Position numbers and translations under genes: made by a program
Source of the DNA: an uncultured bacterium
Lineage (GTDB): Bacteria; Patescibacteriota; Minisyncoccia; Phycocordibacterales; GWA1-40-21
Assembly: GCA_903822075.1 (NCBI GenBank)
Contig: CAIJNK010000011.1
Coordinates: 504 to 64,503, forward strand
Reading direction: 5' to 3'
Length of the DNA: 64,000 nucleotides
Notes under the pieces: generated by a model
Database searches by the model: none
Told to the model about the DNA's origin: nothing
Seen by the model: only the letters and a program-made list of their open reading frames with translations
Shown here: one piece after another, positions 35,986-59,562 of the stretch
How the letters are laid out: every line of letters begins with the position of its first letter
Numbering within the stretch: the first letter of the stretch is position 1

Positions 35986-36076
35986 AAAATTTTTAAATAA
36001 AAAAAGCGTGGAGCTCGAGGATTGTTTTCACAACCCTACAAACTCCACACTCATCAGGACCAAAGTCCCTAAGGCA

Positions 36077-37252
36077 TCAAGCGGCAGTCGTTTCGAGTGC
36101 TCCCGCTGCGTCATTAAAGACACCGATCACCCACTCGGATGATTTCAGAAGTTCACCGATGGTATCCCCGTGCCGACAGAAACGGGCATCGAATTCAACT
36201 TCGAGCGGCAGACCAGTCATGGCTGACCAGCTCACCCCGGCCCGAATCGTAGCCACCTGATCTTCCACCCACTCCGGCAGACCTTGACCCGGCAAAAAGT
36301 CATTGTCCACGTACTGCGGGAAGTCACCGATTGGCGTACCGCCCTCCACGGACAAGAGCTTGGTAAAGTTCACTCCACCAAGACCGCCGGAATTCAGATG
36401 AATCCGCCCGCCAAAAACGTTGGCGGAAATTGCCTGATTCATGGCGTCCACGAACTTCTGACCGCTACCGCGACTGTGGCAGAACTCTCCCTGCCACTGC
36501 GCAATGTGACCGCCGTAACGAGTGTTGATCTCGTTGATCCCCTTGATCTCCAAGGTAGTGTCCGTGAACACGTCAATGTAGCAGGGATCACCGGCCGGCT
36601 TACCTTCAATGAGAAGGTTTGACCCGTCAATGAAGCCAAACTTCAGGGCGTCCGCCAGAGCGCCACTCAGACCATCGATGATCGTGCGCCACTCTTCGAG
36701 CTGCGGGTTAAGATCATGCCCGAGAAGAACGTTGTCCCCACTGATGACACGACCCCAACGGATTCCATCCGGACCGGTCCAGTAGATCACGCTGCCTTCA
36801 TGTCCTTCCATCTTGACCCGTCGCGAAGCCATAAAGCTCAGGACCATCATGTCATGAGCCAACTGACGTCGTTCGGGATCCGGATTAATGAAGGCGCCAT
36901 AGTCACTCCCCGGCAGACCAAACCCAGGCGGAATAATCCGCCCAATCCGAGGGTAACTACCGGCATCAGCTCCTTCCATCCACTCGTCGAGGCTAATCGC
37001 CCGGGGATTATTCCATTTGGCGCTTTTGCCGACCTGAGTATCTTCCGTCGGCACACACAGTTCATGCCACCAATGTGCCGACACGGCAATCGTAATGCCG
37101 TACTTGGCCAGGAGCACCTCGTTCAAAGCAGCAATCGCTGCCAAGGCTTCCTTCATGGTTGTGAAGCCACCGGCCGTCGGATTCCCGAAAGCCATAATCT
37201 GCTTCAACATATGCCAACTGCCCACCAACAATTTCAATACGGGTTTATGCAT
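36077..37252 (-). CDS. sugar isomerase of the xylose-isomerase-like TIM-barrel superfamily, L-rhamnose isomerase-like
   Basis: Start moved to internal ATG with strong SD (GGAAGAGGAGAG-N5-ATG). Motifs SAHWWHE, ASRRV, VIYWTGPDG and GGRIHLNSGG resemble recalled RhaA/L-RhI signatures. About 57% GC. Confidence 0.5.
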   Translation of the reverse strand: MHKPVLKLLVGSWHMLKQIMAFGNPTAGGFTTMKEALAAIAALNEVLLAKYGITIAVSAHWWHELCVPTEDTQVGKSAKWNNPRAISLDEWMEGADAGSYPRIGRIIPPGFGLPGSDYGAFINPDPERRQLAHDMMVLSFMASRRVKMEGHEGSVIYWTGPDGIRWGRVISGDNVLLGHDLNPQLEEWRTIIDGLSGALADALKFGFIDGSNLLIEGKPAGDPCYIDVFTDTTLEIKGINEINTRYGGHIAQWQGEFCHSRGSGQKFVDAMNQAISANVFGGRIHLNSGGLGGVNFTKLLSVEGGTPIGDFPQYVDNDFLPGQGLPEWVEDQVATIRAGVSWSAMTGLPLEVEFDARFCRHGDTIGELLKSSEWVIGVFNDAAGALETTAA

Positions 37253-37351
37253 GTTTCTCTCCTCTTCCTTGTTTTTCTTTTTTCTTCTTTCCCATCCAAA
37301 CAAAACCAAATCACAGCAGAAAAATCAGTGCTTCACCTCCATATTTTATAA

Positions 37352-37408
37352 CTCCCCACCTCATGTGAAAGAGCGCTTATCTGGGGAAAAAGCTAACATT
37401 AATTTAGG
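37352..37408 (-). promoter_or_regulatory. conserved ~55-nt 5' leader element (copy 1) upstream of the rhamnose-isomerase-like gene
   Basis: TCCCCACCTCATGTGAAAGAGCGCTTATCTGGGGAAAAAGCTAACATTAATTT, near-identical to 39459..39515. Confidence 0.5.
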
Positions 37409-37441
37409 CGCTTGGCAAATTTTGATTGTAAAAATAACAAT

Positions 37442-37472
37442 AAAAAAACGGGTAGAGATTACTCTCTACCCG
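37442..37472 (-). terminator. intrinsic terminator downstream of fucI
   Basis: A-run then GGGTAGAGATTACTCTCTACCC on the plus strand, giving hairpin plus T-run on the minus strand. Confidence 0.55.
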
Positions 37473-37501
37473 CGCGTTGAGTATTACCTCATTGCTTCGT
37501 A

Positions 37502-39304
37502 TCAGCCGTACACCGGTCCCAGTTTCTCGCAGGCGCGGAAGTCATTCCCGCCGCAACGATCCCAGAACGTCGGCCGGAAGATATCCGCCTTCGGTATGTT
37601 GTGCAGATCCACCGGGATGCGCAACATAGCATTCACCGTGATGAGATCCCCCCCGATCAGACCGACGGAGTTCGCATCATGATTAGGCCCGATCTGTGTC
37701 ATATAGTCATATGACGACATGTCCCGCGGTTTCCAAAACGACTCTGGCCAAGTGCCGTCAGTAACCCGACTGATATGGTCCGCCACCTTTATGGGCAGCT
37801 CCACCGTCTCACCTTCCACCACGGAACAAGTCAGCATGTCGCCGGCCATGTTGTAGCGGTAGGCGGTCATCGGAATGTCACCCGGTGTTCGGTAATGACT
37901 GGACAAACCATCACCCGGAAAATACTCCAGGTTTGCCGCCATGTACTCTGTATGTGTTGTCGCTCGCTTCACGAGCTCATGCTGTAGATCCGTATTACTA
38001 CGAAGTACAGCCATGGACTGTTGAATTGTCAGATCCTTGAGGCCGGTAAACTCCCGCACCAGACTCAGAACGTCAATACTGTAATCGAGCGCCCCAGCTC
38101 CGGAATTACGTTTGTCAATGAGCCCTTTCGGACACACCGCACTCACGTCAACCCCAGTGGCTTTTTGGATACTCGCAACCGTCCAGTTCGTCCTGATGTC
38201 GGCAAAGAGCTGTGGCATGCCACCACTCAGCAAAGTTGCCATCATCATTCCGAGCCCGTTTTTGCAGTCATTTTCCGTGGCCACAGTGTGCGGCGCGCGG
38301 AAACCATTCCAATCAAACGAACTGCAGAGTATGGACTCGGTCAGATCGAAGTTCGGATACAAGTCCGTCCAATCGCGCTGCCCTTGAGTCCCGGCCGCAA
38401 TGGCGTTGAAGCCCTGGGCGTGTTCCACATCAGCCTTGAAACCTTGCTTCCTGCCCACTGTCGGATTAGCCAAGAGAGGATTCCCGATCATCATATCTCT
38501 GACAATCAGGGTCATCTTCAAGCAATCCCGAAGCAAAGCTTCCGTCACTTGCGGTCGAGCCTGCTGTGCCGGAATTGGCGCCCAGTTGAAACGGAATTGG
38601 TCCTTCATGAACATGCAGGCCCTCTCGAGCTCCTCGTGATCATAAAAACCGCGATCCATTCGTCCCCGGATAGCCACCATGTCCACGGATTTGGTCCCCA
38701 ACCCAAAATATTTGAGCATCGTATTTCGGTCAACGTCCGAACCAATGATACCCATGGACACCCCGCCAACGGACAAGTAATTCTTGCCCCGGATCTCGGC
38801 CACCGCCGCCGCACACCGAGCAAAACGGAGCAGCCGTCCACGCACATACGGCGTAAAGTCGTCTGCCTCGTCTTCCAGGTTTTCATTATAGATGCAGAAG
38901 ATCGGACGCTTTTTCTCGTCCATCGCCGCACAGAAGGCCTTGAGTTCCACCGCGCCCGGTCGGTCGGTCTGATTCAAGCCGTAAGCCGCAAACTGCCATT
39001 CCGAGCTGCCCAAGCCCATAATCGCGCTCATAAGTTCGTCACTATAGGCCCAAGACCGGCTCACAAAAATGACAGACGACACGCCGGCCTTTTGGAATTT
39101 GACTTGGGTTAAAGCGCCGGACCGCACACCGTACACAATCTCCGGCGCCACGACAGTCTGCACCCTTGTCCCATCGGGCAAGAACACATTGTTCGCAATG
39201 AGATTGGCCACCTTATCAGCCAACGCCCACGTTGCCACCGAGTTTGCCTCAAAGGCACCCGTCCGCCACTGGCACGATGCCAATAGTGGGAATTGTGCCA
39301 ACAA
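37502..39304 (-). CDS. fucI: L-fucose isomerase (apparent 5' frameshift)
   Basis: 600-aa ORF with strong similarity to FucI (DRPGAVELKAF, LLRFAR, SVGGVSMGIIGS, WTDLYPNFD, SSFDWNGFRAPHTVATEND, MLRIPVDLHN, FRACEKLGPVYG). The conserved N-terminal peptide (IPTIGIVPVADG, compare E. coli LPKIGIRPVIDG) is encoded in the -1 frame over the first codons. Confidence 0.8.
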   Translation of the reverse strand: MLAQFPLLASCQWRTGAFEANSVATWALADKVANLIANNVFLPDGTRVQTVVAPEIVYGVRSGALTQVKFQKAGVSSVIFVSRSWAYSDELMSAIMGLGSSEWQFAAYGLNQTDRPGAVELKAFCAAMDEKKRPIFCIYNENLEDEADDFTPYVRGRLLRFARCAAAVAEIRGKNYLSVGGVSMGIIGSDVDRNTMLKYFGLGTKSVDMVAIRGRMDRGFYDHEELERACMFMKDQFRFNWAPIPAQQARPQVTEALLRDCLKMTLIVRDMMIGNPLLANPTVGRKQGFKADVEHAQGFNAIAAGTQGQRDWTDLYPNFDLTESILCSSFDWNGFRAPHTVATENDCKNGLGMMMATLLSGGMPQLFADIRTNWTVASIQKATGVDVSAVCPKGLIDKRNSGAGALDYSIDVLSLVREFTGLKDLTIQQSMAVLRSNTDLQHELVKRATTHTEYMAANLEYFPGDGLSSHYRTPGDIPMTAYRYNMAGDMLTCSVVEGETVELPIKVADHISRVTDGTWPESFWKPRDMSSYDYMTQIGPNHDANSVGLIGGDLITVNAMLRIPVDLHNIPKADIFRPTFWDRCGGNDFRACEKLGPVYG

Positions 39305-39458
39305 GCATTCGGTTTGTCACCGTAAACGTTCTCGGAATTATTATTTCACCTGTCTCGCTCATTCTTCTGTCCTCTTTTCTTTTTTCTACCGGTTTGAGAT
39401 TACAATCAAAAGCAAAAAACGCCAACAAAATATCTTAAGTTTTCCTCCTTTGTTTTGA

Positions 39459-39515
39459 CTCCCCACCTCATGTGAAAGAGCGCTTATCTGGGGAAAAAGC
39501 TAACATTAATTTGAC
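39459..39515 (-). promoter_or_regulatory. conserved ~55-nt 5' leader element (copy 2) upstream of fucI
   Basis: CCCCACCTCATGTGAAAGAGCGCTTATCTGGGGAAAAAGCTAACATTAATTT in the same position and orientation relative to fucI as copy 1 is to its gene. Confidence 0.5.
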
Positions 39516-39568
39516 ATTATGGCAAATCTAAAAAATATTATTATATATTTTTTGTCGAAATTTTGACA

Positions 39569-39598
39569 TAAAAAAACCGGCGTCAGAGTGACTGCCGG
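39569..39598 (-). terminator. intrinsic terminator downstream of 39643..39900
   Basis: CCGGCGTCAGAGTGACTGCCGG hairpin preceded by A8 on the plus strand (T-run on the minus strand). Confidence 0.55.
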
Positions 39599-39642
39599 TC
39601 CGTTCCCTCTAAAAGAAAGAACTATATTTTCGCCTGCTGCGC

Positions 39643-39900
39643 TTATTTCTGCGGAGCGGCGCCGGTGGTTGCCGCCCGGTGCTTCCGATAGGAGCTCAGA
39701 ATGCTCCGACCGGCCGCCCTGACCGCCGATGATCCCTTACCGGTCTTGACCCAGTCCGTGAAGGCCAAGCCTTCGGACTTCACTTCTTCGAGGGTCGTGC
39801 TGATGGCCTTGCCCACTTGGCGTTTGGCCCCTGCCCACTCCCGCCCGATCTGTCCTCCACATCCTGCGCCCGCCGTTCCGGTCCCTGTTTTCGTTGCCAT
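39643..39900 (-). CDS. small basic Gly/Ala-rich hypothetical protein
   Basis: 85 aa; own promoter (TTGCAT-17-TATAGT) and terminator; no homology recognised. Confidence 0.3.
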   Translation of the reverse strand: MATKTGTGTAGAGCGGQIGREWAGAKRQVGKAISTTLEEVKSEGLAFTDWVKTGKGSSAVRAAGRSILSSYRKHRAATTGAAPQK

Positions 39901-39942
39901 GGTACCCTTTCCTTTCTCTATTGTTACTTACCGACTGAACCT

Positions 39943-39975
39943 AGACTATACCATACTTTACAATTTTATGCAAAT
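39943..39975 (-). promoter_or_regulatory. sigma70-like promoter for 39643..39900
   Basis: Minus strand TTGCAT-17 nt-TATAGT. Confidence 0.4.
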
Positions 39976-39979
39976 AAAA

Positions 39980-40010
39980 GCGCCCACTGATTCATCATCA
40001 AAATGGGCGC
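39980..40010 (-). terminator. intrinsic terminator after the ABC ATPase gene
   Basis: GCGCCCA-loop-TGGGCGC followed on the minus strand by TTTTATTT. Confidence 0.5.
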
Positions 40011-40046
40011 AGTCTCTTCGATAAAGAACTCCTCCTCAGCTCTGCA

Positions 40047-41042
40047 TTATGTCACTATGTCCCGCTCGTGGAAGGTACCATTCAGATGATCCTCTTCCAA
40101 TGACAAGGACTGGAACGACTTGGGATGCTCCAAGTTGAACTCGGCCACATGGCGCCGGTGATTGGGGTTGAACCCCGTATCCAGCACCTGTTTCATCAGA
40201 GCCCCAAACTCGGCGGTCTTCTTGACCTCCGTGGACATCGCATGCTTATCAAGCGGTATGTCCATAACGATCCGTGACCCCGAGAGTTTACTTCCGTCAT
40301 CCTGGTCTGATGTCCAGTACTGCGACAAGACGAGTAGACGTGAAGACAGGAAGACCGCTTCCTCCAAATCATGAGTGACAAAGATGACCGTCATCTTATG
40401 TTCCTCCCACAACTGTGAAATCAGCACCTGCATATCTTCACGCGTTCCCGGATCCAGTGCCCCAAACGGCTCGTCCATACATAACACCTTCGGCATGCCG
40501 AACATGTCAATCGTGACGAGGGTTTGAGCGATGGCCACCCGCTGCCGCATTCCGCCGGAAAGTTCCTGCGGATATTTATTTGCGGCGTCGGCCAGGCGCA
40601 TACGTTCCAGATATTTCATCGTGATCAGGTTGGCTTCCCGACGCCACTTTGGACGCCAGAGGTCATGGAGGTCCGCTTGGAACTCCAATCCCAGCCGAAC
40701 GTTTTTGGCCACCGTCAGATTCGGCAGCAGGGTGTATTGTTGAAACACCACCCCGCGTTGCTTATCCGGGAAACCGACCGGCCGACTAAAGACGTCGAAG
40801 TGCTTGGCCTGCTGGACCCTCTCTTGTCCAGTGATGAGCCTCAAGAGTGTGGACTTGCCACAACCCGAAGGTCCCACCAGACAAATGAATTCACCAGACT
40901 CCGACAGCAAATCGATATTCGTCAGCACCCGTTTGGTTCGGCCCGTTTCCGTATCCGGATAACCGTGATACGCGCTCTCGATGTGCAGAGCTTCCTCCCC
41001 GGTGATAACCGGTTTTGCTTTTACGCCATTTGTTCCGTTCAC
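40047..41042 (-). CDS. ABC transporter ATP-binding protein (NitT/TauT family) with C-terminal extension
   Basis: Walker A LVGPSGCGKST, signature LSGGMRQRVAIAQTL, Walker B LCMDEPFGALD, H-loop. Start set to GTG preceded by AAGGAG, 10 nt after the permease stop; the track ORF extends further to 41150. About 100-aa C-terminal extra domain. Confidence 0.8.
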   Translation of the reverse strand: MNGTNGVKAKPVITGEEALHIESAYHGYPDTETGRTKRVLTNIDLLSESGEFICLVGPSGCGKSTLLRLITGQERVQQAKHFDVFSRPVGFPDKQRGVVFQQYTLLPNLTVAKNVRLGLEFQADLHDLWRPKWRREANLITMKYLERMRLADAANKYPQELSGGMRQRVAIAQTLVTIDMFGMPKVLCMDEPFGALDPGTREDMQVLISQLWEEHKMTVIFVTHDLEEAVFLSSRLLVLSQYWTSDQDDGSKLSGSRIVMDIPLDKHAMSTEVKKTAEFGALMKQVLDTGFNPNHRRHVAEFNLEHPKSFQSLSLEEDHLNGTFHERDIVT

Positions 41043-41052
41043 GTTTGTCTCC

Positions 41053-41892: not shown

Positions 41893-41955
41893 GCTATTTT
41901 CTCCCTTCCTTTCATACTTCTGACAAAGTGCCCCTACCCTAAATATCTCAATACA

Positions 41956-41983
41956 TTATACACAAAAATTACTTCTTGTCAAG
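41956..41983 (-). promoter_or_regulatory. sigma70-like promoter for the permease-ATPase unit
   Basis: Minus strand TTGACA-16 nt-TATAAT. Confidence 0.45.
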
Positions 41984-41994
41984 GACTCAGGCAT

Positions 41995-42025
41995 AAAAAA
42001 GCTCCCCCGTTTTCTTGGGGGGAGC
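41995..42025 (-). terminator. intrinsic terminator after the substrate-binding protein gene
   Basis: GCTCCCCCC-GTTTTCTT-GGGGGGAGC with A-run before it on the plus strand (T-run after it on the minus strand). Confidence 0.55.
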
Positions 42026-42053
42026 TTACGCTCGAACTTGAGCAGAAGGGCTC

Positions 42054-52765: not shown

Positions 52766-52798
52766 AAAAAAACAGGTAGAGATTGCTCTCTACCTGTG
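52766..52798 (-). terminator. intrinsic terminator after 52821..53765
   Basis: AAAAAAACAGGTAGAGATTGCTCTCTACCTG; the stem is nearly the same as the fucI terminator (GGTAGAGATTACTCTCTACC). Confidence 0.55.
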
Positions 52799-52820
52799 CA
52801 CTTAACTGCAACATCGCCGC

Positions 52821-53765: not shown

Positions 53766-53875
53766 ACGCTGACTCCTTATTCTGTTATGTTCCTTTAGTT
53801 ACACCCAAACAGCTCTATCTGCTTGGATCCTGGACTGGACAATATACAAAAATATGACTTTTGTCAATAGAAAAA

Positions 53876-55564
53876 TTACAGTCCTTTCTTTTTCAAAAAA
53901 AGGCGAACCAAGCGTAATTCTTCAAAGGTAAACTGGCCACCAACTTTTTCTAAAAACTTCATTACCGGTGATAGACGTAATTCCCTATTATCACCGTAAG
54001 TGTCAGTGAAAGCTTTATATATTTTCTTGAATTTATTGAGCGATATTTCATTTTCCAAACCGCGGATATCCAGTGCCGAATCCTCGGTCAAAAGTTTCTC
54101 CAAGTGATCGAGCACCGTACCAATTTTTGTGCCCTTGGCAGCAGCAATTTCATTTAAGTTTAATCCCGCCTCCAAATATTTCCTCGTTTCTTCAAAAGTG
54201 GAGATTTTCGCTTTCTTTACTCGACCACTGGCGGTTCTCTCCGGTGAAATTTTTTCCAAAAACTTTTTTTGCTTTTCTTTTTTCTCGGCATCAGACAAAG
54301 AGAGCATCTCGGCCAAATGTTTGTTGGAAATAATTTTTATTTCTTCGTCAAAATCCAAAACTTCACCCCGGACTTGAGTGGCCATCTCATTCAGACCGAG
54401 CAAAGTAAGACCATCCAAAGACCGGACGCGAGACAGCGCCACATAGCCCATGCCCTTTTCAAAAGATTTTGATAAGTCCACTTCTATCGCATCGAGGCTC
54501 ATGCCCTGGCTTTTATGCACAGTAATCGCCCAAGCCAAACGCAGAGGATACTGGCCAATACTGGCTTTTGGCTTACCCTCTTCCTCAATGATCCAACTGG
54601 CGGGTTTGACATGAATAAGTTTGCCGTAGGAAGTCCGGACAATCGGACCATCCTGATCAAAACCCTCGACCTTACCCAAAGTGCCATTAACAAAGCCCTC
54701 TTCAAAATTATTTTTGACAAACATCACTTTAGCTCCCGCCTTTAACCGCAAAATTTCCGGGGCCAAACAACTTTTTACCAAAGAATCCACAAGCGGTTTT
54801 CGACCCTTACTCTCCATCGAAAATTCCCTTTGCTGACCATGGAGTTTTTGAAGTTCTCTTTGGTTTACAATATCCACGTCAATATTGTGAGTATACAAAC
54901 GAGTAGGCTCCAATCCTTGAAAAGTTTTTTTATCCTGCCGGTCAGTCAGATGTTTCAGCCCTTCACTCGATAATTTGTTCCGGCGAATCTCATTCAAAAC
55001 TTTTAGAAAAGCCGAGTCCGTCTGACGATGCTGCTCCTCCAGATAACAAATTTTAAAATCAGCCTCCTTCCAAATTTCCGCTTCATAAGCAAACTGGGCC
55101 AGCGGTTCGCCACTTCGGGCAATAGGCGGCAGCTGAAAAAAATCCCCGCAAAGGATCACTTGTATCCCACCAAAAGGCAACAAACTGTTTCTCATATACT
55201 GACAAATTTTATTTATCAAATCCAGACGGAAATGATGGAGCATGGAGACTTCGTCAATCACCAAGACTTGCGTGCGGTCAAAACGATCCCGCAAATATTT
55301 CCGCGTTTTTAATTCTTCCAGATCAAATTTGGTCAAAGAATCTTTGATCCCCATCCCAGTCCAGGAATGGATGGTGGTGCCGCCCATGTGCGTGGCCGCA
55401 ATCCCAGTGCTCGCCGTAATACCCACGTCCACGTAATTATCTTTCAAAAAATTAATATACCGGTTCAACAAGTGCGTCTTGCCACTGCCGGCCGGACCGG
55501 TCAAAAAAACATTGTGTCCAAGCTTTAGAATATTCAAGGCTTCATCTTGTGTCATGTCCCTCAT
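53876..55564 (-). CDS. Pif1/RecD-family ATP-dependent DNA helicase with C-terminal HTH-like tail
   Basis: 562 aa; Walker A LTGPAGSGKTHLL, Walker B LVIDEVSML, motif AITVHKSQGMSLD, C-terminal helical region. Lower GC than the island. Confidence 0.8.
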   Translation of the reverse strand: MRDMTQDEALNILKLGHNVFLTGPAGSGKTHLLNRYINFLKDNYVDVGITASTGIAATHMGGTTIHSWTGMGIKDSLTKFDLEELKTRKYLRDRFDRTQVLVIDEVSMLHHFRLDLINKICQYMRNSLLPFGGIQVILCGDFFQLPPIARSGEPLAQFAYEAEIWKEADFKICYLEEQHRQTDSAFLKVLNEIRRNKLSSEGLKHLTDRQDKKTFQGLEPTRLYTHNIDVDIVNQRELQKLHGQQREFSMESKGRKPLVDSLVKSCLAPEILRLKAGAKVMFVKNNFEEGFVNGTLGKVEGFDQDGPIVRTSYGKLIHVKPASWIIEEEGKPKASIGQYPLRLAWAITVHKSQGMSLDAIEVDLSKSFEKGMGYVALSRVRSLDGLTLLGLNEMATQVRGEVLDFDEEIKIISNKHLAEMLSLSDAEKKEKQKKFLEKISPERTASGRVKKAKISTFEETRKYLEAGLNLNEIAAAKGTKIGTVLDHLEKLLTEDSALDIRGLENEISLNKFKKIYKAFTDTYGDNRELRLSPVMKFLEKVGGQFTFEELRLVRLFLKKKGL

Positions 55565-55667
55565 TCTAGCATAGAAAAATTATAATATTCTCTCACTTGA
55601 CAAAAAAGAAGTATTCGTGTAGAATTTAGTGAGTTAGAGAAGTACAAAAAACCATGAGGAGCAATAA

Positions 55668-56066
55668 ATGAAGATCAGGATTGACGTGATTTTGGACCCG
55701 CACCAGACAAATCTGTTTTCTTCCGGCGAGCGCGTGGATGCATTTCTTCAGAATGAAGTGGCGCCTATCGTGAGAAGAGAGTTTGAAACCACGAAGACTG
55801 CCGGCCGGGTAGACATCGGTTTGAATATCGTTGGCACGGTCAAGACGATCGGGATGTCAGACATTCAGATTGTCGTCTACTACTCAACGATGGGCTTACC
55901 GGATCTTTGGGTTAGCCTGCGCGAGTCGATAAAGAGGCAGATCGGGGTAGTATTCAATCAGACTCGTTGCTTCGAGCGTTCGTCCCCTCTTTTAACCCTC
56001 TCGGTAGACTGTCTGGCGGAACAAGGTGAAGGTCCCATGACCTTCACCCACGCCCCCATTCGGTGA
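55668..56066 (+). CDS. hypothetical protein
   Basis: 132 aa; preceded by a consensus promoter (TTGACA-17-TAGAAT) and SD GAGGAG. Confidence 0.3.
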   Translation: MKIRIDVILDPHQTNLFSSGERVDAFLQNEVAPIVRREFETTKTAGRVDIGLNIVGTVKTIGMSDIQIVVYYSTMGLPDLWVSLRESIKRQIGVVFNQTRCFERSSPLLTLSVDCLAEQGEGPMTFTHAPIR

Positions 56067-56153
56067 AATATCGACAAGGTTAGCCCGACAGATCGCACTC
56101 GCGACTGTCGGGCTATATTATTATTTACTGAAATTTTGTGCTAACATTTACAC

Positions 56154-56399
56154 ATGATTAATTATCAAGATCAAATGGGAACAATAGAAAATCAAATAAA
56201 TAGTCCGGAAGATATTCAACGAGTGACCCTGGCACGTGGTGAAGCAGAGACCAATTTAGGTGTCATGGGAAATAATGACAGTGAGAGAGACCGCATAGAA
56301 ATGATTTGGCAGAATTTTGAAAGTAGAAAGATTAATGCCGATAAAGCAATTGAGGATTTGAATCTGGTTTGGCGTTCCAAGCAAATGGGGGCAATGTAA
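56154..56399 (+). CDS. hypothetical small protein
   Basis: 81 aa, acidic; followed by a bidirectional terminator. Confidence 0.25.
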   Translation: MINYQDQMGTIENQINSPEDIQRVTLARGEAETNLGVMGNNDSERDRIEMIWQNFESRKINADKAIEDLNLVWRSKQMGAM

Positions 56400-56422
56400 T
56401 TTCTAAAACCCAAACAAACAAA

Positions 56423-56444
56423 AACCGTTCATAGCAGAACGGTT
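56423..56444. terminator. bidirectional intrinsic terminator
   Basis: AACCGTTC-ATAGCA-GAACGGTT flanked by A-rich (5') and T-rich (3') runs; serves the convergent genes 56154..56399 and 56460..57029. Confidence 0.5.
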
Positions 56445-56459
56445 TCTGCGTTTGAACGG

Positions 56460-57029
56460 TTAGATTAGAGACATACCCATGTAATCGTGTTGGCCGACTT
56501 TCTTGCACTGCGCATCTTCAATGTACTCATGCCCATAGAAGTCAGAAAAGTCCGCGGTTTCTCCAAGGTTGAAATAAACGAATAACTTCTCTGACTTAAC
56601 CCGGAAAGGACCGCGTCCGCCACGGAACAGTTTACTCTGGTAAGCCTTGCAAAGGACTTCCTTCAGGAACGGAATCACTTCCTTCGGATATGACCCCTGG
56701 TAGGACATCCGCCAGACCGGCAGCCAGCCAGACCAAGATTCAAGTTTGAAGAAAATGGTTGTGGTCCCGGCCGAAGCGTCCGACTGACCGTTGGTCACCA
56801 GCCATTCGTCCACCATCTTGAAGTGGCCAATCCACATGGACACCGTTTTGCGCCACCGGGTCTTGGTCACTTTGACCCTCGTGCCGGTCGGTGACTTCCG
56901 GCGCTTTCCGCCGGCATAACCCAAGAGCATGCCCATAAAAAACACTTCTTGGGCACCGATTAAGATGGCTTTCCTCTCTGTGCCATCTAGGATCTTCATT
57001 CCCGCCTTAGCCTTTTTTGTCTTCTTCAT
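56460..57029 (-). CDS. hypothetical protein
   Basis: 189 aa; basic N-terminus, no recognisable domain. Confidence 0.3.
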   Translation of the reverse strand: MKKTKKAKAGMKILDGTERKAILIGAQEVFFMGMLLGYAGGKRRKSPTGTRVKVTKTRWRKTVSMWIGHFKMVDEWLVTNGQSDASAGTTTIFFKLESWSGWLPVWRMSYQGSYPKEVIPFLKEVLCKAYQSKLFRGGRGPFRVKSEKLFVYFNLGETADFSDFYGHEYIEDAQCKKVGQHDYMGMSLI

Positions 57030-57149
57030 GTCTTCCCCTCTTTTGTGTTTGCCTCAAATACCAAATCTGCTTATCTATTCAAATACTACTCATTTTTAGC
57101 ATATATGTCAAGCCGAGTAAGGCATCTGAATTTTGTGTATAATGTTCAC

Positions 57150-57866
57150 ATGAAATACGAAAATAAAGATTTGTTGGATTTATATAAGTTAAAAGCCGAG
57201 GAGCATTGGCATACGATGTTTAACCCAATGTTGAAATATTTGGGTAACCTTGAAGGTAAAAGGATTTTAGATATCGGTTGTGGATCAGGCGAGCTTACAA
57301 ACAAAATGGCCGAAACCGCAGGGCAAGTTACTGGTCTGGATTTATCACCTAAATGGATTGAGTATTGTAAAATTAGTTACCAAAGGAAAAATCTCTCTTT
57401 TGTCCAAGGTAGTGCCACTGACCTAAAAATGTTTCCGGATGACTATTTTGACATTATAATAATGAACCTGGTTTTGCCAAATATTTATAAAGTAGCCGAC
57501 ATGGAAAAGATATTTTTAGAAATTAAAAGAGTGACAAGAATATCTGGCGAGTTTATTTTTAGTGATGTTCACCCAATTTTGAAAATGACCAAAAAAGAAG
57601 GGGCACGCAGGCAAGAATATTCCAAAGGTTTCTCTTATTTCAAGGAGGGTTCAAAGCTTTCTGTTATTGTTGCCTTGCCAAATAAAAAGGAAATAGAGTT
57701 CGAAGACGCACACTGGTCTCTTTCTTTTTACTCAGACTTAATTGAGAAATATGGCTTTGGCCTTGTTAAAATAATCGAATCCAATTACCCTAAAAACGCT
57801 CCCAAAAAGTTTTTCCGTTATTCCTTCCCCGAATATATCACCTTTTGTTGCAAGAAATTAAAATGA
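57150..57866 (+). CDS. class I SAM-dependent methyltransferase
   Basis: Motif I ILDIGCGSGELT, acidic post-I (LDLS), motif II DIIIMNLVL. Start set to MKYENK immediately downstream of an extended -10 (TGTGTATAAT), possibly leaderless; the track ORF starts at 57045. About 35% GC. Confidence 0.6.
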   Translation: MKYENKDLLDLYKLKAEEHWHTMFNPMLKYLGNLEGKRILDIGCGSGELTNKMAETAGQVTGLDLSPKWIEYCKISYQRKNLSFVQGSATDLKMFPDDYFDIIIMNLVLPNIYKVADMEKIFLEIKRVTRISGEFIFSDVHPILKMTKKEGARRQEYSKGFSYFKEGSKLSVIVALPNKKEIEFEDAHWSLSFYSDLIEKYGFGLVKIIESNYPKNAPKKFFRYSFPEYITFCCKKLK

Positions 57867-57893
57867 TCGTTGAGTTTTTTCCAAAGGAATAAT

Positions 57894-58598
57894 CTATTTC
57901 AAACGTATTTCATAAATAGAAACAGGACCTTTTTGTATGCCTGCAGTCACTTTTAGATTGAATCTCTCTGAAACAATATAGCCATGTTTTGGAGCCTGAA
58001 CGGCAGGATTATTAACCGGCCCGGCCAAATGAAAATAATTCATTATTATGACTCCATCCTTATTAAGGAATTTTTTGACATCTTCAAAAAATCTATGAAT
58101 CAGACTTCCACGTTTAATTATTGAAAAATCTACAGAAAGCTGTTCGCTCATTGGTCCGTCAGAAAAGAATTGATGATTAAAAACGATGACGTCAAACTTT
58201 TGCGACTTAATATTCACAAATAAATCGCTTTCAACCACTTTGATCTTTTTTGAGAGTTCGTAATTATTAATATTTAAATTTGTATTTTTTACAGCCACAC
58301 CATCGACATCAGAGCAAATTACCTTCTTGGCTCCGCACAGGGCCATAACAACGCCCAGAATTCCTGTTCCACAGCCGACATCAATCACCGATTTATTTTT
58401 GTATAGTCCATTATTCAAGCAAAGCCACTGCGCCAATTGCAAGGAAGACATTATTTCCGGCCTCAGAATATTAGCAGACACCAAGAAATTTTTTAAAACA
58501 AGACCGCCGGCAATTTCAATATCAGTTTTGTATTCCGAATGGCCGTGAGCCTTAAGTTGTAAAGCGACCTGCGTCTTCTGTTGAGGATTTAATTTCAT
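57894..58598 (-). CDS. class I SAM-dependent methyltransferase (small-domain MTase family)
   Basis: 234 aa; motif I VIDVGCGTGILGVV, DVD acidic loop. Low GC. Confidence 0.6.
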   Translation of the reverse strand: MKLNPQQKTQVALQLKAHGHSEYKTDIEIAGGLVLKNFLVSANILRPEIMSSLQLAQWLCLNNGLYKNKSVIDVGCGTGILGVVMALCGAKKVICSDVDGVAVKNTNLNINNYELSKKIKVVESDLFVNIKSQKFDVIVFNHQFFSDGPMSEQLSVDFSIIKRGSLIHRFFEDVKKFLNKDGVIIMNYFHLAGPVNNPAVQAPKHGYIVSERFNLKVTAGIQKGPVSIYEIRLK

Positions 58599-58717
58599 AT
58601 ATTCATAAGCATAACAAAAAAAATAAGCAGTTAAAAGAGCCGCAACGTTTCCGTTGCGGCCCAGTCCTTTCGATATACTTACTTCTTTGTGCTTTTTACT
58701 TCTTCAGGATCACCTGA

Positions 58718-59503
58718 TTAGAAGTTGCCCGTTACGGCCATGGCAATGCTGATTACTCCACCTTGCCGAGGATCTTTTGGACCAGCGTCCCCGAGCGGAA
58801 TAACTCCCGTGACATCCACGGCGTTCCACTGTAAGGATTTGCTCAAGGGGATCTTGATCCCACACTGTGCTTGTCCGGACAGCAGCTCGCTAAATGGAGC
58901 CATCTCGTTATTCCATTGTAGGCTAAGCCGATCATAAGCCAAGAAGCCAACAGCCTCCCCTAGCCGATATTCGTGCGTCACGCTTGGTATGATCGACACC
59001 ATACCATTGTTCGCATCACGCACATAGTTCCAGTATTCGACCCGGATCTCAGCACCGACAGCGTTGCGCTCGTCGCATTTCCACTTCCGGCCCAAGAACA
59101 CGTCATACGCCAGAACGTCATTCCCGTTCCCCGTACCTACCGGATATCCGTCGCACCATTTCAGACGGAATTTCAGATAACCGCTGTTTGGCAGGATGAT
59201 TTTCTTCCACAAGCAAGCGTCGAACTCATCCCCCTTGTCCCCGTCCAGATCAGCATTGTTCAGCCCGGCGTATTCGATCAGCTCAGCCGCAAACCCCTGC
59301 GGCAAATTCAGCCAACCGTCAACCATCGCCTGGGGCTTGTCGTACTTATCGAACGAAATGGTCGGGTGGATGTTTTTCGTTTGAACCATCATCGTCATAC
59401 TGCCACTCGGCACCCAGTCGGTCGTCGGCACCGCTTTGGCACCGAACGCAACGAGCCCAACCAACACTACCATCGCCATCATTTTCAACGTACTCTTCTT
59501 CAC
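58718..59503 (-). CDS. secreted beta-rich protein, putative outer-membrane beta-barrel (paralog of 51837..52643)
   Basis: 261 aa; signal peptide, C-terminal ...VTGNF (aromatic terminal residue), shared blocks with the paralog. High GC; immediately next to the low-GC dnaE. Confidence 0.45.
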   Translation of the reverse strand: MKKSTLKMMAMVVLVGLVAFGAKAVPTTDWVPSGSMTMMVQTKNIHPTISFDKYDKPQAMVDGWLNLPQGFAAELIEYAGLNNADLDGDKGDEFDACLWKKIILPNSGYLKFRLKWCDGYPVGTGNGNDVLAYDVFLGRKWKCDERNAVGAEIRVEYWNYVRDANNGMVSIIPSVTHEYRLGEAVGFLAYDRLSLQWNNEMAPFSELLSGQAQCGIKIPLSKSLQWNAVDVTGVIPLGDAGPKDPRQGGVISIAMAVTGNF

Positions 59504-59562
59504 TCTCTCATCTCCTTCTGCGGATTGTCCGCCAACATCACTTGACTAAGTGAACTCTTAGT

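What the first reader, a model, noticed from the sequence alone, without database searches (positions are those of the whole stretch)
36000..59560. A ~23 kb GC-rich island with outer-membrane-type proteins inside a CPR-like low-GC core genome
From about 36,050 to 53,800 and again 58,700-59,550 the GC content jumps from about 43-46% to about 55-58%. Every gene there lies on the minus strand and is bracketed by its own AT-rich promoter and hairpin terminator. The encoded functions include OmpA-like peptidoglycan-binding domains, a lipobox lipoprotein, two paralogous beta-rich secreted putative outer-membrane proteins, a rhamnose-isomerase-like enzyme, FucI, an ABC importer and TelA/XpaC. Proteins of the diderm type are not expected in a Patescibacteria-type cell, which is what the flanking core genes suggest. 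Either this is large horizontal acquisition or the contig is chimeric. Against chimerism, the same unusual promoter grammar (TTGACTTTT-N10/11-ATGCTAYAC) and the same terminator skeleton (AAAACCCCnC...GnGGGGCTC) occur in both the low-GC flanks and the island.
Basis: partly seen in the sequence, partly recalled or inferred. Interest (0 to 1): 0.8.

Follow-up and report, generated by a model that had tools for sequence, protein, structure and literature searches.

The report
Acquired GC-rich island in a CPR genome
A real, horizontally acquired 18-kb gene island in a tiny Paceibacteria (CPR) genome carries a nine-gene cell-envelope/transport cassette that circulates among CPR bacteria and a sugar isomerase taken from Verrucomicrobia-like bacteria, and beside it lie genes for small porin-like beta-barrel proteins that are unexpected in a cell thought to have no outer membrane.

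Summary
The GC-rich region is real. It is 52.1% GC (coding 53.9%, GC3 0.57-0.71) against 42.8% in the flanks, which is less than the 55-58% claimed. It is not a chimera. At least four independent assemblies from two projects reproduce the junctions, and one 24-kb contig spans both ends.

Sister Paceibacteria (DnaE 85-86% identical) have the site empty: DUF2914 gene, Pif1, dnaE.

Island A (35,986-53,875) is composite.
- A conserved nine-gene cassette: two solute-binding/OmpA-like fusions, a vWA lipoprotein, an AAA ATPase, a 2-TM protein, TelA and an ABC importer. Its promoter and terminator layout matches copies in other Paceibacterota, so the proximate donor was CPR, not a diderm.
- A FucI 68-72% identical to PVC-group proteins, with no named Paceibacterota hit.
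- Orphan genes.

The OmpA-like domains bind peptidoglycan and do not indicate an outer membrane. The two "beta-rich" paralogues, however, do model confidently (pLDDT 88.8) as 12-stranded KdgM/NanC-type outer-membrane barrels with a conserved C-terminal Phe. One of them is conserved beside dnaE in related species.

This is a known kind of event (a Patescibacteria genomic island) with unusual cargo.

The parts
34870..35985 (-). Left anchor: native DUF2914 membrane protein (6 TM). It lies next to Pif1 in the sister genomes.
   Evidence: Pfam DUF2914 56 bits. 65-67% identical homologues lie directly beside Pif1 in L002 and L004. GC3 0.46.
35986..53875 (-). Island A: a 17.9-kb insertion between the Pif1 stop codon and the DUF2914 gene start. 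No integrase, tRNA or flanking direct repeats.
   Evidence: The same gap is 12 bp in L004 and 1.1 kb (three small low-GC ORFs) in L002. GC is 52.1% against 42.8% in the flanks. No tRNA and no boundary repeats. The junctions are reproduced in independent assemblies.
36077..37252 (-). p391: cytoplasmic protein of unknown family.
   Evidence: No Pfam, NCBIfam, PADLOC or PDB sequence match. The exact protein is found on 9 contigs. GC3 0.62.
37346..37405 (-). Copy 1 of a 60-nt duplicated promoter/leader (TTGCCA-N17-TAGCTT plus 5'UTR), upstream of p391.
   Evidence: 97% identical to 39453-39512. No Rfam match and no significant RNA fold.
37502..39304 (-). L-fucose isomerase family enzyme (FucI). The residues matching the conserved catalytic and metal-site motifs are intact. 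The first 25-45 residues are missing or degenerate, and the start codon is uncertain (a GTG at 39238 is used in public gene calls).
   Evidence: Pfam Fucose_iso_N1/N2/C. NCBIfam FucI 490 bits, below the 775 cut-off. The top 120 homologues are 68-72% identical, and every named one is PVC-group or Latescibacterota. Alignment to Verrucomicrobiae P0206. Motifs ATEND, FADIRT and NHD are present.
39453..39512 (-). Copy 2 of the duplicated promoter/leader, upstream of FucI.
   Evidence: sequence read.
39643..39900 (-). p85: small GC-rich ORF with its own promoter and terminator. Unknown function.
   Evidence: ORF found. Called as an 85-aa gene in independent contigs. No Pfam match; it is not DUF4342.
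40047..41042 (-). Cassette gene 9: ABC transporter ATPase (Walker A GPSGCGKS, LSGG, Walker B).
   Evidence: Pfam ABC_tran. Motifs checked. 72% identical to L083 and 61% to the Verrucomicrobiae copy.
41053..41892 (-). Cassette gene 8: ABC permease (BPD_transp_1, 6 TM).
   Evidence: 71% identical to L083.
42054..43130 (-). Cassette gene 7: secreted substrate-binding protein of the NitT/TauT type, with its own promoter (12 of 12 consensus).
   Evidence: TIGR03427 ABC_peri_uca equivalog, 428 bits against a 334 cut-off. Promoter at 41982-41955. 80% identical to L083 and 69-71% to Verrucomicrobiae.
43260..44477 (-). Cassette gene 6: TelA family protein (cytoplasmic, helical).
   Evidence: Pfam TelA 172.6 bits against a cut-off of 30. 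80% identical to L083 and 71% to L093, but only 36-37% to Verrucomicrobiae.
44513..45367 (-). Cassette gene 5: p284, an N-terminal 2-TM hairpin followed by a cytoplasmic coiled-coil region. It is 35 nt upstream of telA. It resembles XpaC in position and topology only.
   Evidence: TM prediction. No XpaC/PF10112 hit even at E<5. Weak LeoBC hit, 1e-5. Conserved in every cassette copy.
45542..47164 (-). Cassette gene 4: single-module classic-clade AAA+ ATPase (CDC48/VAT/Mpa-ARC-like) with an N-domain of about 210 aa. The Walker A is GPPGCSKT.
   Evidence: Pfam AAA. pup_AAA 247 bits, below cut-off. PDB p97/VAT/Mpa matches at about 1e-45 to 1e-70. Motifs checked.
47355..48926 (-). Cassette gene 3: membrane-anchored fusion of an SsuA/NMT1-type solute-binding domain with a C-terminal OmpA-like peptidoglycan-binding domain (NKNLSQQRAEAV).
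   Evidence: Homologues and tree.
49085..49804 (-). Cassette gene 2: vWA-domain lipoprotein (lipobox ASAG|C, MIDAS DCSGS). It overlaps the upstream gene by 4 nt.
   Evidence: Pfam VWA. Motifs checked. The -4 overlap is conserved in all cassette copies.
49801..51528 (-). Cassette gene 1: second fusion of an NMT1/SsuA solute-binding domain with a degenerate OmpA-like domain. It has an N-terminal anchor.
   Evidence: Pfam NMT1 42 bits, OmpA 19.8 bits. SsuA_fam. GHSD and LSxxRAxxV motifs seen in the sequence.
51837..52643 (-). p268: signal peptide plus a 12-stranded outer-membrane-type beta-barrel of the KdgM/NanC class. Paralogue of p261 (43% identical).
52821..53765 (-). p314: cytoplasmic orphan protein with its own promoter.
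   Evidence: No Pfam, NCBIfam or PADLOC hit. No viral relative.
53876..55564 (-). Native Pif1-family helicase (low GC). It separates the two variable sites.
   Evidence: Pfam PIF1. 79-81% identical in L002 and L004, and 70-71% in L005 and L105, in the same position relative to dnaE. GC3 0.46.
55565..59663 (.). Variable site B between Pif1 and dnaE. It holds GC-rich p132 (55668-56066 +), GC-rich DUF5680 (56460-57029 -) and two low-GC SAM methyltransferases (57045-57866 +, 57894-58598 -), plus p261.
   Evidence: The same gap is 57 nt in L004, holds one 130-aa ORF in L002, and holds barrel plus methyltransferase in L105. DUF5680 homologues lie near dnaE in L064 and beside a barrel gene in L106.
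58718..59503 (-). p261: second KdgM-like beta-barrel paralogue, divergent from dnaE, ending in ...GNF.
   Evidence: Alignment A1. An orthologous arrangement is seen in L105 (60% identical) and L104 (family member). In each genome the barrel gene is GC3-rich (0.54-0.66) against its neighbours.
59664..62861 (+). Right anchor: native dnaE, which places the host in the Paceibacteria.
   Evidence: Pfam DNA_pol3_alpha and related domains. 84-88% identical to Paceibacteria/Parcubacteria MAGs.

Best explanation
The region is a genuine genomic island in a Paceibacteria (CPR/Patescibacteria) chromosome. It occupies two recombination-prone gaps on either side of a native Pif1 helicase gene, just upstream of dnaE.

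Island A (35,986-53,875; 17.9 kb) arrived by horizontal transfer after this lineage split from its sequenced sister species. No integrase, tRNA or boundary repeats were found, so I infer that entry was by DNA uptake and recombination. That step is not shown.

The cargo of island A is composite:
1. A nine-gene envelope cassette that circulates among Paceibacterota and arrived already carrying CPR-style signals, with one sigma-70 extended -10 promoter and one hairpin terminator per transcription unit.
2. A FucI sugar isomerase whose closest relatives are in PVC-group diderms (Verrucomicrobiota, Lentisphaerota and relatives), placed under a locally duplicated promoter/leader that it shares with an orphan gene.
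3. Orphan genes, including a KdgM/NanC-type 12-stranded beta-barrel.

Proposed working of the cassette (inferred, not shown):
- Two membrane-anchored proteins each tether a solute-binding domain to peptidoglycan through an OmpA-like domain. Together with a vWA lipoprotein they capture or sense a small solute in the wall zone.
- A cognate NitT/TauT-type ABC importer (TIGR03427-type binding protein) takes that solute up.
- On the cytoplasmic face, TelA is docked to the membrane by the 2-TM protein p284 (XpaC-like by topology). TelA and a CDC48/Mpa-like AAA+ unfoldase handle the accompanying membrane and envelope stress.

The higher GC reflects a GC-richer donor pool and incomplete amelioration. 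The intergenic regions are AT-rich because they carry CPR promoters.
For: Shown:
- Compositional discontinuity in GC, GC3, RSCU and tetranucleotides.
- Host identity from dnaE and rpoB synteny with Paceibacteria MAGs.
- The site is empty in L004 (12-bp gap) and nearly empty in L002, and there is no cassette beside Pif1 in L105.
- Both junctions are reproduced in independent assemblies: ERZ18625109, ERZ1426629 (24 kb, spanning both junctions), ERZ1426734, ERZ18625277 and ERZ27313079.
- The nine-gene order is conserved in Paceibacterota L083, L093, L095 and L108, in Verrucomicrobiae L092, in L086 and in L097.
- The window's copy is closest to L108 and L083 (57-80% identity).
- The intergenic gap lengths match those of the Paceibacterota copies, and the terminator-then-TTGACA...TGTATAxT layout is positionally conserved with them. 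Both features are absent from the tight Verrucomicrobiae operons.
- FucI's top 120 hits are all PVC-group or Latescibacterota where an organism is named.
- Cassette genes and the other GC-rich genes share codon usage (r = 0.88). That usage is nearer to Verrucomicrobiae backgrounds (r = 0.60-0.77) than to the host (r = 0.35-0.39).
- Functional motifs are intact in the OmpA-like, vWA, AAA, ABC and FucI proteins.

From the literature:
- Genomic islands and mostly CPR-to-CPR transfer are documented in Patescibacteria (PMC12455944).
- xpaC-telA affects daptomycin binding and membrane phospholipid organisation in E. faecium (PMC6811118).
- TelA is proposed to form sub-membrane structures (PMC7824862).
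Against: - No mobility gene, tRNA or att-like repeat marks the island, so the entry mechanism is inferred.
- In every low-GC Paceibacterota carrier the cassette is GC3-richer than its flanks (L083 +14 points, L093 +19, window +17). The barrel gene beside dnaE is GC3-rich in three species. This regularity could instead reflect gene-specific compositional constraint rather than recency of transfer.
- Identity across cassette genes is mosaic. TelA is 36% identical to the Verrucomicrobiae copy while the SBP is 70% identical, so the cassette may not have a single history.
- The functional model is not based on any experiment on this cassette.
- The TIGR03427 ligand is only 'putative urea'.
- p284 has no sequence link to XpaC.
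- The tree is NJ without support values.
- I could not inspect the rest of the genome.
Confidence: 0.72

Rival explanations
1. The contig is a chimera or misassembly that joins a CPR genome to a fragment from a GC-richer organism.
For: There is a sharp compositional break at both ends. FucI and the codon usage resemble PVC bacteria.
Against: The GC-rich block is inserted exactly between two genes that are adjacent in sister genomes, and the sequence then returns to the same syntenic backbone. The junctions p391 -> DUF2914 -> MarR ... rpoB and Pif1 -> p314 -> p268 recur in separate assemblies from different samples, projects and assemblers, and a 24-kb contig spans both junctions. The intergenic regions inside the island carry CPR-type promoters and terminators.
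Confidence: 0.02
2. The whole island was taken in one step directly from a diderm, specifically a PVC/Verrucomicrobia-like bacterium that may be the physical host of this episymbiont. The outer-membrane barrel and the OmpA-like proteins are then diderm baggage.
For: FucI is 68-72% identical to PVC proteins only. The SBP, PBP-OmpA, permease and ATPase are 57-71% identical to the Verrucomicrobiae copies. All GC-rich genes share one codon usage (r = 0.88), and it is closest to Verrucomicrobiae backgrounds. Island GC3 of 0.57-0.71 is close to that of L086 (0.55-0.73) and somewhat below L092 (0.65-0.78).
Against: The cassette's transcription-unit layout and the promoter and terminator positions are shared with the Paceibacterota copies and not with the tight Verrucomicrobiae operons. 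The window also lacks their 2OG-Fe oxygenase gene. TelA, NMT1-OmpA and vWA are much closer to the Paceibacterota copies. The window's copy groups with L108 and L083 in the tree. The barrel family was found only in Paceibacteria contexts. There is no p391 next to FucI in the Verrucomicrobiae locus.
Confidence: 0.13
3. The GC-rich genes are old residents of this Paceibacteria clade that were lost from the sampled sisters. Their high GC3 is kept up by gene-specific selection or biased conversion and is not a trace of recent transfer.
For: A barrel gene beside dnaE is present and GC3-rich in L104 (DnaE 88%), L105 (80%) and the window. The cassette exceeds its flanks by a similar 14-19 GC3 points in three low-GC carriers. 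The promoters are fully host-like.
Against: Island A is absent at a clean 12-bp junction in L004, and also absent in L002 and L105. The cassette sits in unrelated neighbourhoods in other Paceibacterota. FucI has no Paceibacterota relatives among the named top hits. In L108 and L095 the cassette's GC3 is close to that of its neighbours.
Confidence: 0.1
4. The cassette is an anti-phage or anti-invader defence system (Ter/TelA-like with an IetA-like AAA ATPase and a TerY-like vWA protein) sitting in a defence-island hotspot, not a transport and envelope-stress module.
For: Weak PADLOC and NCBIfam matches: AAA to IetA/IteA (63-64 bits), vWA to TerY (E = 0.005), p284 to LeoBC (1e-5). The literature proposes that TelA and vWA form sub-membrane barriers against phage (PMC7824862). 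The location is a variable hotspot with methyltransferases nearby.
Against: The matches cover only generic AAA or vWA cores and are far below family cut-offs. No nuclease, TerB, TerC or TerD partner is present. Three of the nine genes are a complete ABC importer, and two more carry the same class of solute-binding domain. The nearby methyltransferases are general SAM-dependent types.
Confidence: 0.12

Closest known systems
Genomic islands and horizontally transferred genes in Patescibacteria (Paceibacteria included), as surveyed in groundwater MAGs (PMC12455944)
   Same: A compositionally deviant multi-gene block in a streamlined CPR genome. Transfer is mostly CPR-to-CPR with occasional donors from other phyla. 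Transporters and envelope functions are among the cargo.
   Different: Here the empty site and the independent junction evidence are explicit. The island has no mobility genes. The cargo includes a conserved, undescribed nine-gene cassette and OMP-type barrels. The PVC group is not among the donor phyla listed in that survey's Table 1.
xpaC-telA (yaaN) envelope-stress gene pair of Firmicutes, and TelA of Ter/kilA systems
   Same: A bona fide TelA (PF05816) lies immediately downstream of a small protein with an N-terminal 2-TM hairpin and a helical cytoplasmic part. This matches the xpaC-telA order and topology.
   Different: p284 has no detectable sequence similarity to XpaC. The pair is embedded in a larger conserved cassette with an AAA+ ATPase, a vWA lipoprotein, two PBP-OmpA fusions and an ABC importer. 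No TerB, TerC, TerD or TerZ genes are present.
OmpA/Pal/MotB-type C-terminal peptidoglycan-binding domain proteins (PF00691)
   Same: The canonical NxxLSxxRAxxV and GH[ST]D motifs are present, and the predicted location is extracytoplasmic.
   Different: There is no N-terminal 8-stranded barrel (so it is not OmpA proper), no Pal lipobox and no MotA partner. The domain is instead fused to an SsuA/NMT1 periplasmic-binding-protein fold behind a single TM anchor. NCBI names this architecture 'phosphate ABC transporter substrate-binding/OmpA family protein', and I found no functional study of it.
KdgM/NanC family of small 12-stranded specific porins of Gram-negative outer membranes
   Different: Sequence identity is only 8-10% and there is no Pfam hit. 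The family is tiny (56 clusters) and has so far been seen only in Paceibacteria contexts, a lineage regarded as monoderm and having lost its porins. The target membrane is unknown.
L-fucose isomerase FucI (TIGR01089/PRK10991)
   Same: All three Pfam domains are present, as are the residues matching the conserved catalytic and metal-site motifs. It is about 70% identical to PVC-group FucI.
   Different: It scores below the NCBIfam equivalog cut-offs. Its N-terminus is truncated or degenerate. It has no fucK, fucA or fucP partners nearby. It is driven by a duplicated local promoter/leader shared with an orphan gene.

Membership tests
Horizontally acquired genomic island | Composition differs from the host backbone (GC, codon usage, oligonucleotides) | tested here: met
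   GC is 52.1% against 42.8% (p = 2.5e-9). GC3 is 0.57-0.71 against about 0.46. RSCU correlates with the flanks at r = 0.35-0.39. Tetranucleotide profiles correlate at r = 0.34-0.55, against 0.93-0.98 among flank segments.
Horizontally acquired genomic island | Absent from the orthologous site in close relatives (empty site) | tested here: met
   L004 has DUF2914 and Pif1 12 bp apart. L002 has 1.1 kb of unrelated small ORFs there. L105 has no cassette beside Pif1.
Horizontally acquired genomic island | Physically contiguous with the host chromosome (not an assembly artefact) | tested here: met
   Both junctions are present in independent public assemblies, including one 24-kb contig that spans both. 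Read-level mapping could not be done.
Horizontally acquired genomic island | Mobility signatures (integrase or transposase, tRNA target, flanking direct repeats) | tested here: not met
   No tRNA, no boundary repeats, and no integrase, transposase or phage domains in Pfam. No viral, phage or plasmid relatives. This feature is common but not obligatory for islands.
OmpA proper / outer-membrane porin OmpA | N-terminal 8-stranded transmembrane beta-barrel followed by the C-terminal PF00691 domain | tested here: not met
   The N-terminal parts are a TM anchor followed by an SsuA/NMT1 solute-binding fold. Only the C-terminal peptidoglycan-binding domain matches.
OmpA-like peptidoglycan-binding domain (PF00691) | Pfam match above the gathering score, with the conserved D/R peptidoglycan-contact motif | tested here: met
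   For 47355-48926: 59.6 bits against a cut-off of 27.2, with motif NKNLSQQRAEAV. For 49801-51528: only 19.8 bits, below cut-off; GHSD and LSLTRAIAV are retained, so that domain is degenerate.
TelA (PF05816) | Full-length Pfam match above the gathering score | tested here: met
   172.6 bits against 30, covering profile positions 15-332 of 332.
[quoted passage not shown] | Sequence match to the family profile | tested here: not met
   No hit even at E<5. Only gene order and the 2-TM-plus-helical topology are analogous.
Ter stress-response / tellurite-resistance system | Presence of TerB, TerC, TerD or TerZ, or a TerY-kinase-phosphatase triad, alongside TelA | tested here: not met
   None is detected in the island by Pfam, NCBIfam or PADLOC. 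The vWA-to-TerY match has E = 0.005 only.
Bacterial outer-membrane beta-barrel (OMP), KdgM/NanC-like | Signal peptide plus a closed antiparallel barrel of even strand number that matches solved OMPs | tested here: met
Bacterial outer-membrane beta-barrel (OMP), KdgM/NanC-like | C-terminal beta-signal ending in an aromatic residue | tested here: met
   The terminal Phe is present in at least 90% of 45 family members and in p261. p268 itself ends in ...NLDL.
Bacterial outer-membrane beta-barrel (OMP), KdgM/NanC-like | The host has an outer membrane and BAM/Omp85 machinery to insert the barrel | not testable with these tools
   Only 64 kb of the genome is available, and none of the annotated proteins in it matches an OM-biogenesis family. 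The literature treats CPR as monoderm with porins lost (bioRxiv 10.1101/2021.05.31.446380; PMC8871954).
Bacterial outer-membrane beta-barrel (OMP), KdgM/NanC-like | Sequence membership in the KdgM Pfam family | tested here: not met
   There is no Pfam hit apart from a spurious DUF6113 match over the signal peptide. Identity to KdgM is 8%.
L-fucose isomerase (FucI equivalog) | Score above the NCBIfam equivalog cut-off, with a complete N-terminal domain | tested here: not met
   490 bits against 775, and 445 against 850. The N-terminus is truncated relative to PVC homologues. Family-level membership (three Pfam domains, catalytic-site motifs) is met.
Proteasomal/ARC-Mpa AAA ATPase | Score above the equivalog cut-off, with proteasome or Pup partners | tested here: not met
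   247 bits against 505. No proteasome or Pup genes are nearby. It belongs to the classic AAA clade only.

The most novel reading that the evidence does not exclude
A clade of Paceibacteria, a lineage regarded as monoderm and lacking BAM, maintains its own small family of KdgM/NanC-type 12-stranded beta-barrels with a conserved C-terminal Phe beta-signal. One copy is kept beside dnaE across species and a second copy lies on the island. These proteins would be exported and inserted into the outer membrane of the diderm host cell, possibly a PVC bacterium given the FucI donor signal. There they would open a sugar or acidic-oligosaccharide channel at the episymbiont-host contact, feeding the island's importer and isomerases. 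Alternatively, this clade has an unrecognised outer-membrane-like layer.
Probability: 0.15. Interest if true: 0.85.

Novelty: new member of a known kind. Interest (0 to 1): 0.5.

Why it matters
The result settles a question that could have been a trivial artefact. The island is real and was acquired. Its history can be read: a CPR-adapted cassette plus a gene from PVC bacteria, inserted at a hotspot beside Pif1 and dnaE.

Three things are worth carrying forward.
1. There is a conserved, undescribed nine-gene cassette: TelA, a 2-TM partner, a CDC48-like AAA ATPase, a vWA lipoprotein, two peptidoglycan-tethered solute-binding proteins and an ABC importer. It is shared by Paceibacterota, Verrucomicrobiae and other phyla. 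This gives TelA, whose function has long been obscure, a defined and testable genetic context.
2. When this cassette lives in CPR genomes, its operons are broken into single units that each have their own promoter and terminator. This is a clear example of how CPR genomes domesticate foreign operons.
3. A rare family of porin-like barrels occurs in a lineage assumed to have no outer membrane. This bears directly on how episymbiotic CPR cells contact and tap their hosts. PVC-derived genes may also point to the host's identity.

Tried and rejected
- Exact-protein look-up of the DUF2914 gene with the longest ORF start found nothing. The junction was recovered instead through p391 with its ATG start.
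- The Rfam gathering scan of the whole window, the permissive scan of 36,000-40,100 and RNA folding of the duplicated leader gave nothing. A riboswitch reading was dropped in favour of a duplicated promoter/operator.
- PADLOC gave only generic weak hits, so the cassette was not filed as a known defence system.
- p391 as a rhamnose isomerase was rejected for lack of evidence: no Pfam, NCBIfam or PDB sequence support.
- p85 as the DUF4342 protein that accompanies the cassette in L083 and L093 was rejected: no hit.
- p284 as XpaC by sequence was rejected: no hit.
- A phage or plasmid origin found no support: no megablast match in the phage or plasmid collections and no relatives of the barrel, PBP-OmpA or p314 in viral contigs.
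- The first structure model of p268 from 6 sequences was too uncertain (pLDDT 60.6). It was replaced by a 45-sequence model.
- AFDB Foldseek was unavailable.
- The Anantharaman 2012 Ter-systems paper is not held, so its statements are cited only through PMC7824862.
I infer that L086 is Verrucomicrobiae-like only from its identical architecture, including the 2OG-Fe oxygenase gene, and from the tree.
- The shared 'promoter grammar' was demoted as an argument against chimerism after the checks.

Full report
OBSERVATION. The compositional jump is real, but it is smaller and more fragmented than described.
- Positions 36,050-53,800 are 52.1% GC. Coding sequence there is 53.9% and intergenic sequence is 39.6%. 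Positions 58,700-59,550 are 53.2%.
- The flanks are 42.8% (1-36,000) and 42.2% (59,600-64,000). For 1-kb windows the difference has p = 2.5e-9.
- The signal is strongest at third codon positions. Island genes have GC3 0.57-0.71. Flank genes have 0.28-0.53, apart from three exceptions at 0.52-0.58.
- Tetranucleotide profiles of flank segments correlate with each other at 0.93-0.98 but with the island at only 0.34-0.55. Codon usage (RSCU) of the island correlates with the flanks at only 0.35-0.39.
The span is therefore two GC-rich blocks, not one.
- Minus-strand orientation is shared with the preceding 36 kb, so it does not mark the island.
- The promoter and terminator layout is confirmed. There are 25 sigma-70-like sites against 13.3 +/- 3.8 expected, and the best promoters and hairpin terminators lie in the AT-rich gaps. 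The 14 genes form about 10 transcription units rather than 14.

HOST AND EMPTY SITE. DnaE is 84-88% identical to Paceibacteria/Parcubacteria MAGs, and rpoB, Pif1 and dnaE are syntenic with them.
- In sister genome L004 the DUF2914 membrane gene (homologue of 34,870-35,985), Pif1 and dnaE are contiguous. The Pif1-DUF2914 gap is 12 bp and the Pif1-dnaE gap is 57 nt.
- In L002 the same gaps hold 1.1 kb of small low-GC ORFs and a single 130-aa ORF.
- Island A (35,986-53,875; 17.9 kb) and the variable block B (55,565-59,663) therefore occupy two hotspots on either side of a native Pif1 gene.
- No tRNA, integrase or boundary repeats mark either block.

NOT A CHIMERA. Exact-protein look-ups recovered independent contigs from several samples and two projects.
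- L088 (26.7 kb) runs AAA ... FucI - p391 - DUF2914 - MarR - ... - rpoB.
- L099 and L100 run Pif1 - p314 - p268 - cassette.
- One 24,145-nt contig (ERZ1426629) spans both junctions.
- A foreign fragment dropped precisely between two syntenic genes, and reproduced by different assemblies, is not a plausible artefact.

THE CORE OF ISLAND A IS A CONSERVED NINE-GENE CASSETTE.

Domain analysis revises the 'OmpA' calls. Both large proteins are an N-terminal membrane anchor, then an SsuA/NMT1-type solute-binding domain, then a C-terminal OmpA-like peptidoglycan-binding domain. The PBP-OmpA protein has the canonical motif NKNLSQQRAEAV, and the second fusion has a degenerate version.

The cassette genes, in order, are:
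- NMT1-OmpA;
- a vWA lipoprotein, which overlaps NMT1-OmpA by 4 nt and has an intact MIDAS motif;
- PBP-OmpA;
- a classic-clade AAA+ ATPase (CDC48/VAT/Mpa-like, Walker A GPPGCSKT);
- p284, which has a 2-TM hairpin followed by a coiled-coil region;
- TelA (172.6 bits);
- a TIGR03427-type substrate-binding protein (428 bits against a cut-off of 334);
- a permease;
- an ABC ATPase.

The same order recurs in several places:
- Paceibacterota contigs L083, L093 (flanked by L20, L35, IF3, SmpB and FtsH), L095 and L108;
- a Verrucomicrobiae MAG (L092);
- a 790-kb contig with the Verrucomicrobiae-type architecture (L086);
- a 1.7-Mb contig with sigma-54 regulators (L097).

More distant PBP-OmpA homologues (46-50% identical) carry Planctomycetota, Gammaproteobacteria and Elusimicrobiota labels.

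PROXIMATE DONOR OF THE CASSETTE: ANOTHER PACEIBACTEROTA.
- The window's copy is closest to L108 (68-79%) and L083 (57-80%), and it groups with them in an NJ tree (no support values).
- The intergenic gap lengths are about -4, 160, 150-300, 150-210, 25-36, 90-130, 160-260 and 8-11 nt. The window shares this pattern with L083 and L093. The Verrucomicrobiae copies are instead two tight operons and carry an extra 2OG-Fe oxygenase gene.
- Within each equivalent gap the three Paceibacterota copies show the same order: a terminator hairpin, then a TTGACA-N-(T/C)GTGTATAxT extended -10 promoter. The TelA|SBP gap has a hairpin but no promoter in all three. The TTGACTTTTTC... promoter upstream of the AAA gene is itself conserved in L083.
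- The cassette therefore arrived already carrying CPR-style signals.
The strict motif occurs 0 times in 1.39 Mb of other Paceibacteria loci. Four of its five window copies precede GC-rich genes. Two copies are paralogous (p268 and p261), and one came in with the cassette.

A TRUE DIDERM SIGNAL EXISTS FOR FucI.
- Its 120 best homologues are 68-72% identical. Every one that carries an organism name is Verrucomicrobiae, Lentisphaerota, Victivallales, Kiritimatiellia, Planctomycetota or Latescibacterota. None is Paceibacterota.
- The residues matching the conserved catalytic-site motifs are present. The first 25-45 residues are missing or degenerate relative to a Verrucomicrobiae homologue.
- The gene sits behind a 60-nt promoter/leader that is duplicated (97% identity) upstream of the orphan gene p391. 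That duplication points to remodelling after acquisition.
- All GC-rich genes share one codon usage (r = 0.88). It is nearer to Verrucomicrobiae backgrounds (0.60-0.77) than to the host, although this comparison is largely driven by GC3.

THE BETA-BARRELS. p268 (island A) and p261 (beside dnaE) are 43% identical and belong to a very small family.
- The family has 5 clusters among 5.8e9 proteins and 56 representatives among 1.84e9.
- With a 45-sequence alignment, AlphaFold2 gives pLDDT 88.8 and pTM 0.81: a signal peptide followed by 12 long antiparallel strands.
- The C-terminal residue is Phe in at least 90% of members, which is the classical OMP beta-signal.
However, a metagenome scan showed that a family member lies divergently beside dnaE in L104 (DnaE 88%) and L105 (DnaE 80%, order dnaE - barrel - methyltransferase - Pif1). 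In each genome the barrel gene is GC3-rich (0.64 and 0.54) against neighbours at 0.24-0.39.
- p261 is therefore a clade-level feature of this hotspot and not a private recent import. L002 and L004 lack it.
- Every genomic context I could recover for the family is Paceibacteria.
- CPR are treated in the literature as monoderm and as having lost their porins (bioRxiv 10.1101/2021.05.31.446380; PMC8871954). An OMP-type family in this clade is therefore unexpected. I could not examine the rest of the genome for BAM or LPS genes.

HOW IT MOST LIKELY WORKS.

Shown: insertion at a variable site, independent contiguity, a composite origin, intact functional motifs, and individual promoters.

Inferred:
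- Entry was by DNA uptake and recombination.
- The cassette acts as an envelope module, and it works as follows.
  - Two peptidoglycan-tethered binding proteins and the vWA lipoprotein capture or sense a small solute in the wall zone.
  - The NitT/TauT-type ABC system imports that solute.
  - TelA, docked to the membrane by p284, works with the AAA+ unfoldase on the membrane side.
- The inference about TelA draws on two sources. The first is the envelope-stress phenotype of xpaC-telA in Enterococcus (PMC6811118). The second is the proposal that TelA forms sub-membrane structures (PMC7824862).
- I put about 0.3 on this specific functional model and about 0.72 on the overall island explanation.

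A defence-system reading has only weak, generic profile support.

An unresolved oddity remains. In low-GC carriers the cassette (+14 to +19 GC3 points) and the barrel gene are consistently GC-richer than their surroundings. This may mean repeated transfer from a GC-richer pool, or it may mean gene-specific constraint.

COMPARISON AND NOVELTY. Genomic islands and predominantly CPR-to-CPR transfer in Patescibacteria are already documented (PMC12455944), so the event is a new member of a known kind. The cargo is the interesting part. I found no description of the TelA/AAA/vWA/PBP-OmpA/ABC cassette in the searches I could run or of OMP-type barrels in CPR. Those searches cover only open-access literature.

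Noticed in passing
window 17621-21545 (-): A RhuM-family gene (20475-21545, Pfam 347 bits) begins with the same 13 codons (MSTPVEKIKERLN) as the dnaG primase gene at 17621-19333. An unannotated 425-aa ORF lies between them. This looks like an insertion that duplicated the 5' end of dnaG.
   Followed up: partly
window 37346-37405 and 39453-39512 (-): A 60-nt repeat (97% identical) carries a TTGCCA-N17-TAGCTT promoter and 5' leader upstream of both p391 and FucI. It has no Rfam family and no significant RNA fold, so it is probably a duplicated promoter/operator that co-regulates the two genes.
   Followed up: yes
window 37448-37473 and 52772-52797 (-): Two nearly identical terminator hairpins (GGTAGAGAG-YAAT-CTCTACC followed by a T-run) lie downstream of FucI and of p314, at opposite ends of island A.
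   Followed up: no
window 14650-15138 (-): A 489-nt leader lies between a strong promoter (15084-15111, the strict motif) and pheS. It is long enough for a T-box-type element, but nothing reached an Rfam gathering score.
   Followed up: partly
window 15811-16416 (-): A small GC-rich membrane-protein gene (15893-16264, GC3 0.58, no Pfam hit) is driven by the strict promoter motif and bracketed by two near-duplicate GAGCCCC...GGGGTTTTCTGTTTG terminators. It may be a second mini-island.
   Followed up: no
window 45542-47164; L093, L086, L092: The cassette's AAA+ ATPase has an unusual Walker A, GPPGCSKT, with Ser replacing the canonical Gly before Lys. This is conserved in the Paceibacterota L093 copy and in both Verrucomicrobiae-type copies. 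L083 has the canonical GCGKT.
   Followed up: partly
L083 6906-7163; L093 6791-7078; L084 and L085 331-588: A small DUF4342 protein accompanies the cassette immediately upstream in several Paceibacterota copies and shares its elevated GC3. The window has no DUF4342 gene; its p85 is unrelated.
   Followed up: partly
L095 9487-9819 and 11712-12023: In the GC-rich Paceibacterota copy the AAA gene is reduced to a 103-aa remnant, and a pilin-like (N_methyl) gene is inserted between the vWA and PBP-OmpA genes. This shows that the cassette tolerates loss of the ATPase.
   Followed up: no
L104 7917-8723; L105 4487-5284; window 58718-59503: The barrel gene beside dnaE keeps a GC3 25-30 points above its neighbours in L104 and L105, and 20 points above dnaE in the window, across species whose DnaE is only 80-88% identical. 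At the same locus L104 carries a p268-like copy while L105 and the window carry p261-like copies, which suggests replacement at a hotspot.
   Followed up: partly
window 31130-34804 (-): MarR, two HlyD-type adaptor fragments and an MFS transporter (an efflux module) lie between rpoB and the DUF2914 gene. They have no homologues at the equivalent place in sister loci L002 and L004, so this stretch is variable too despite its host-like GC.
   Followed up: partly
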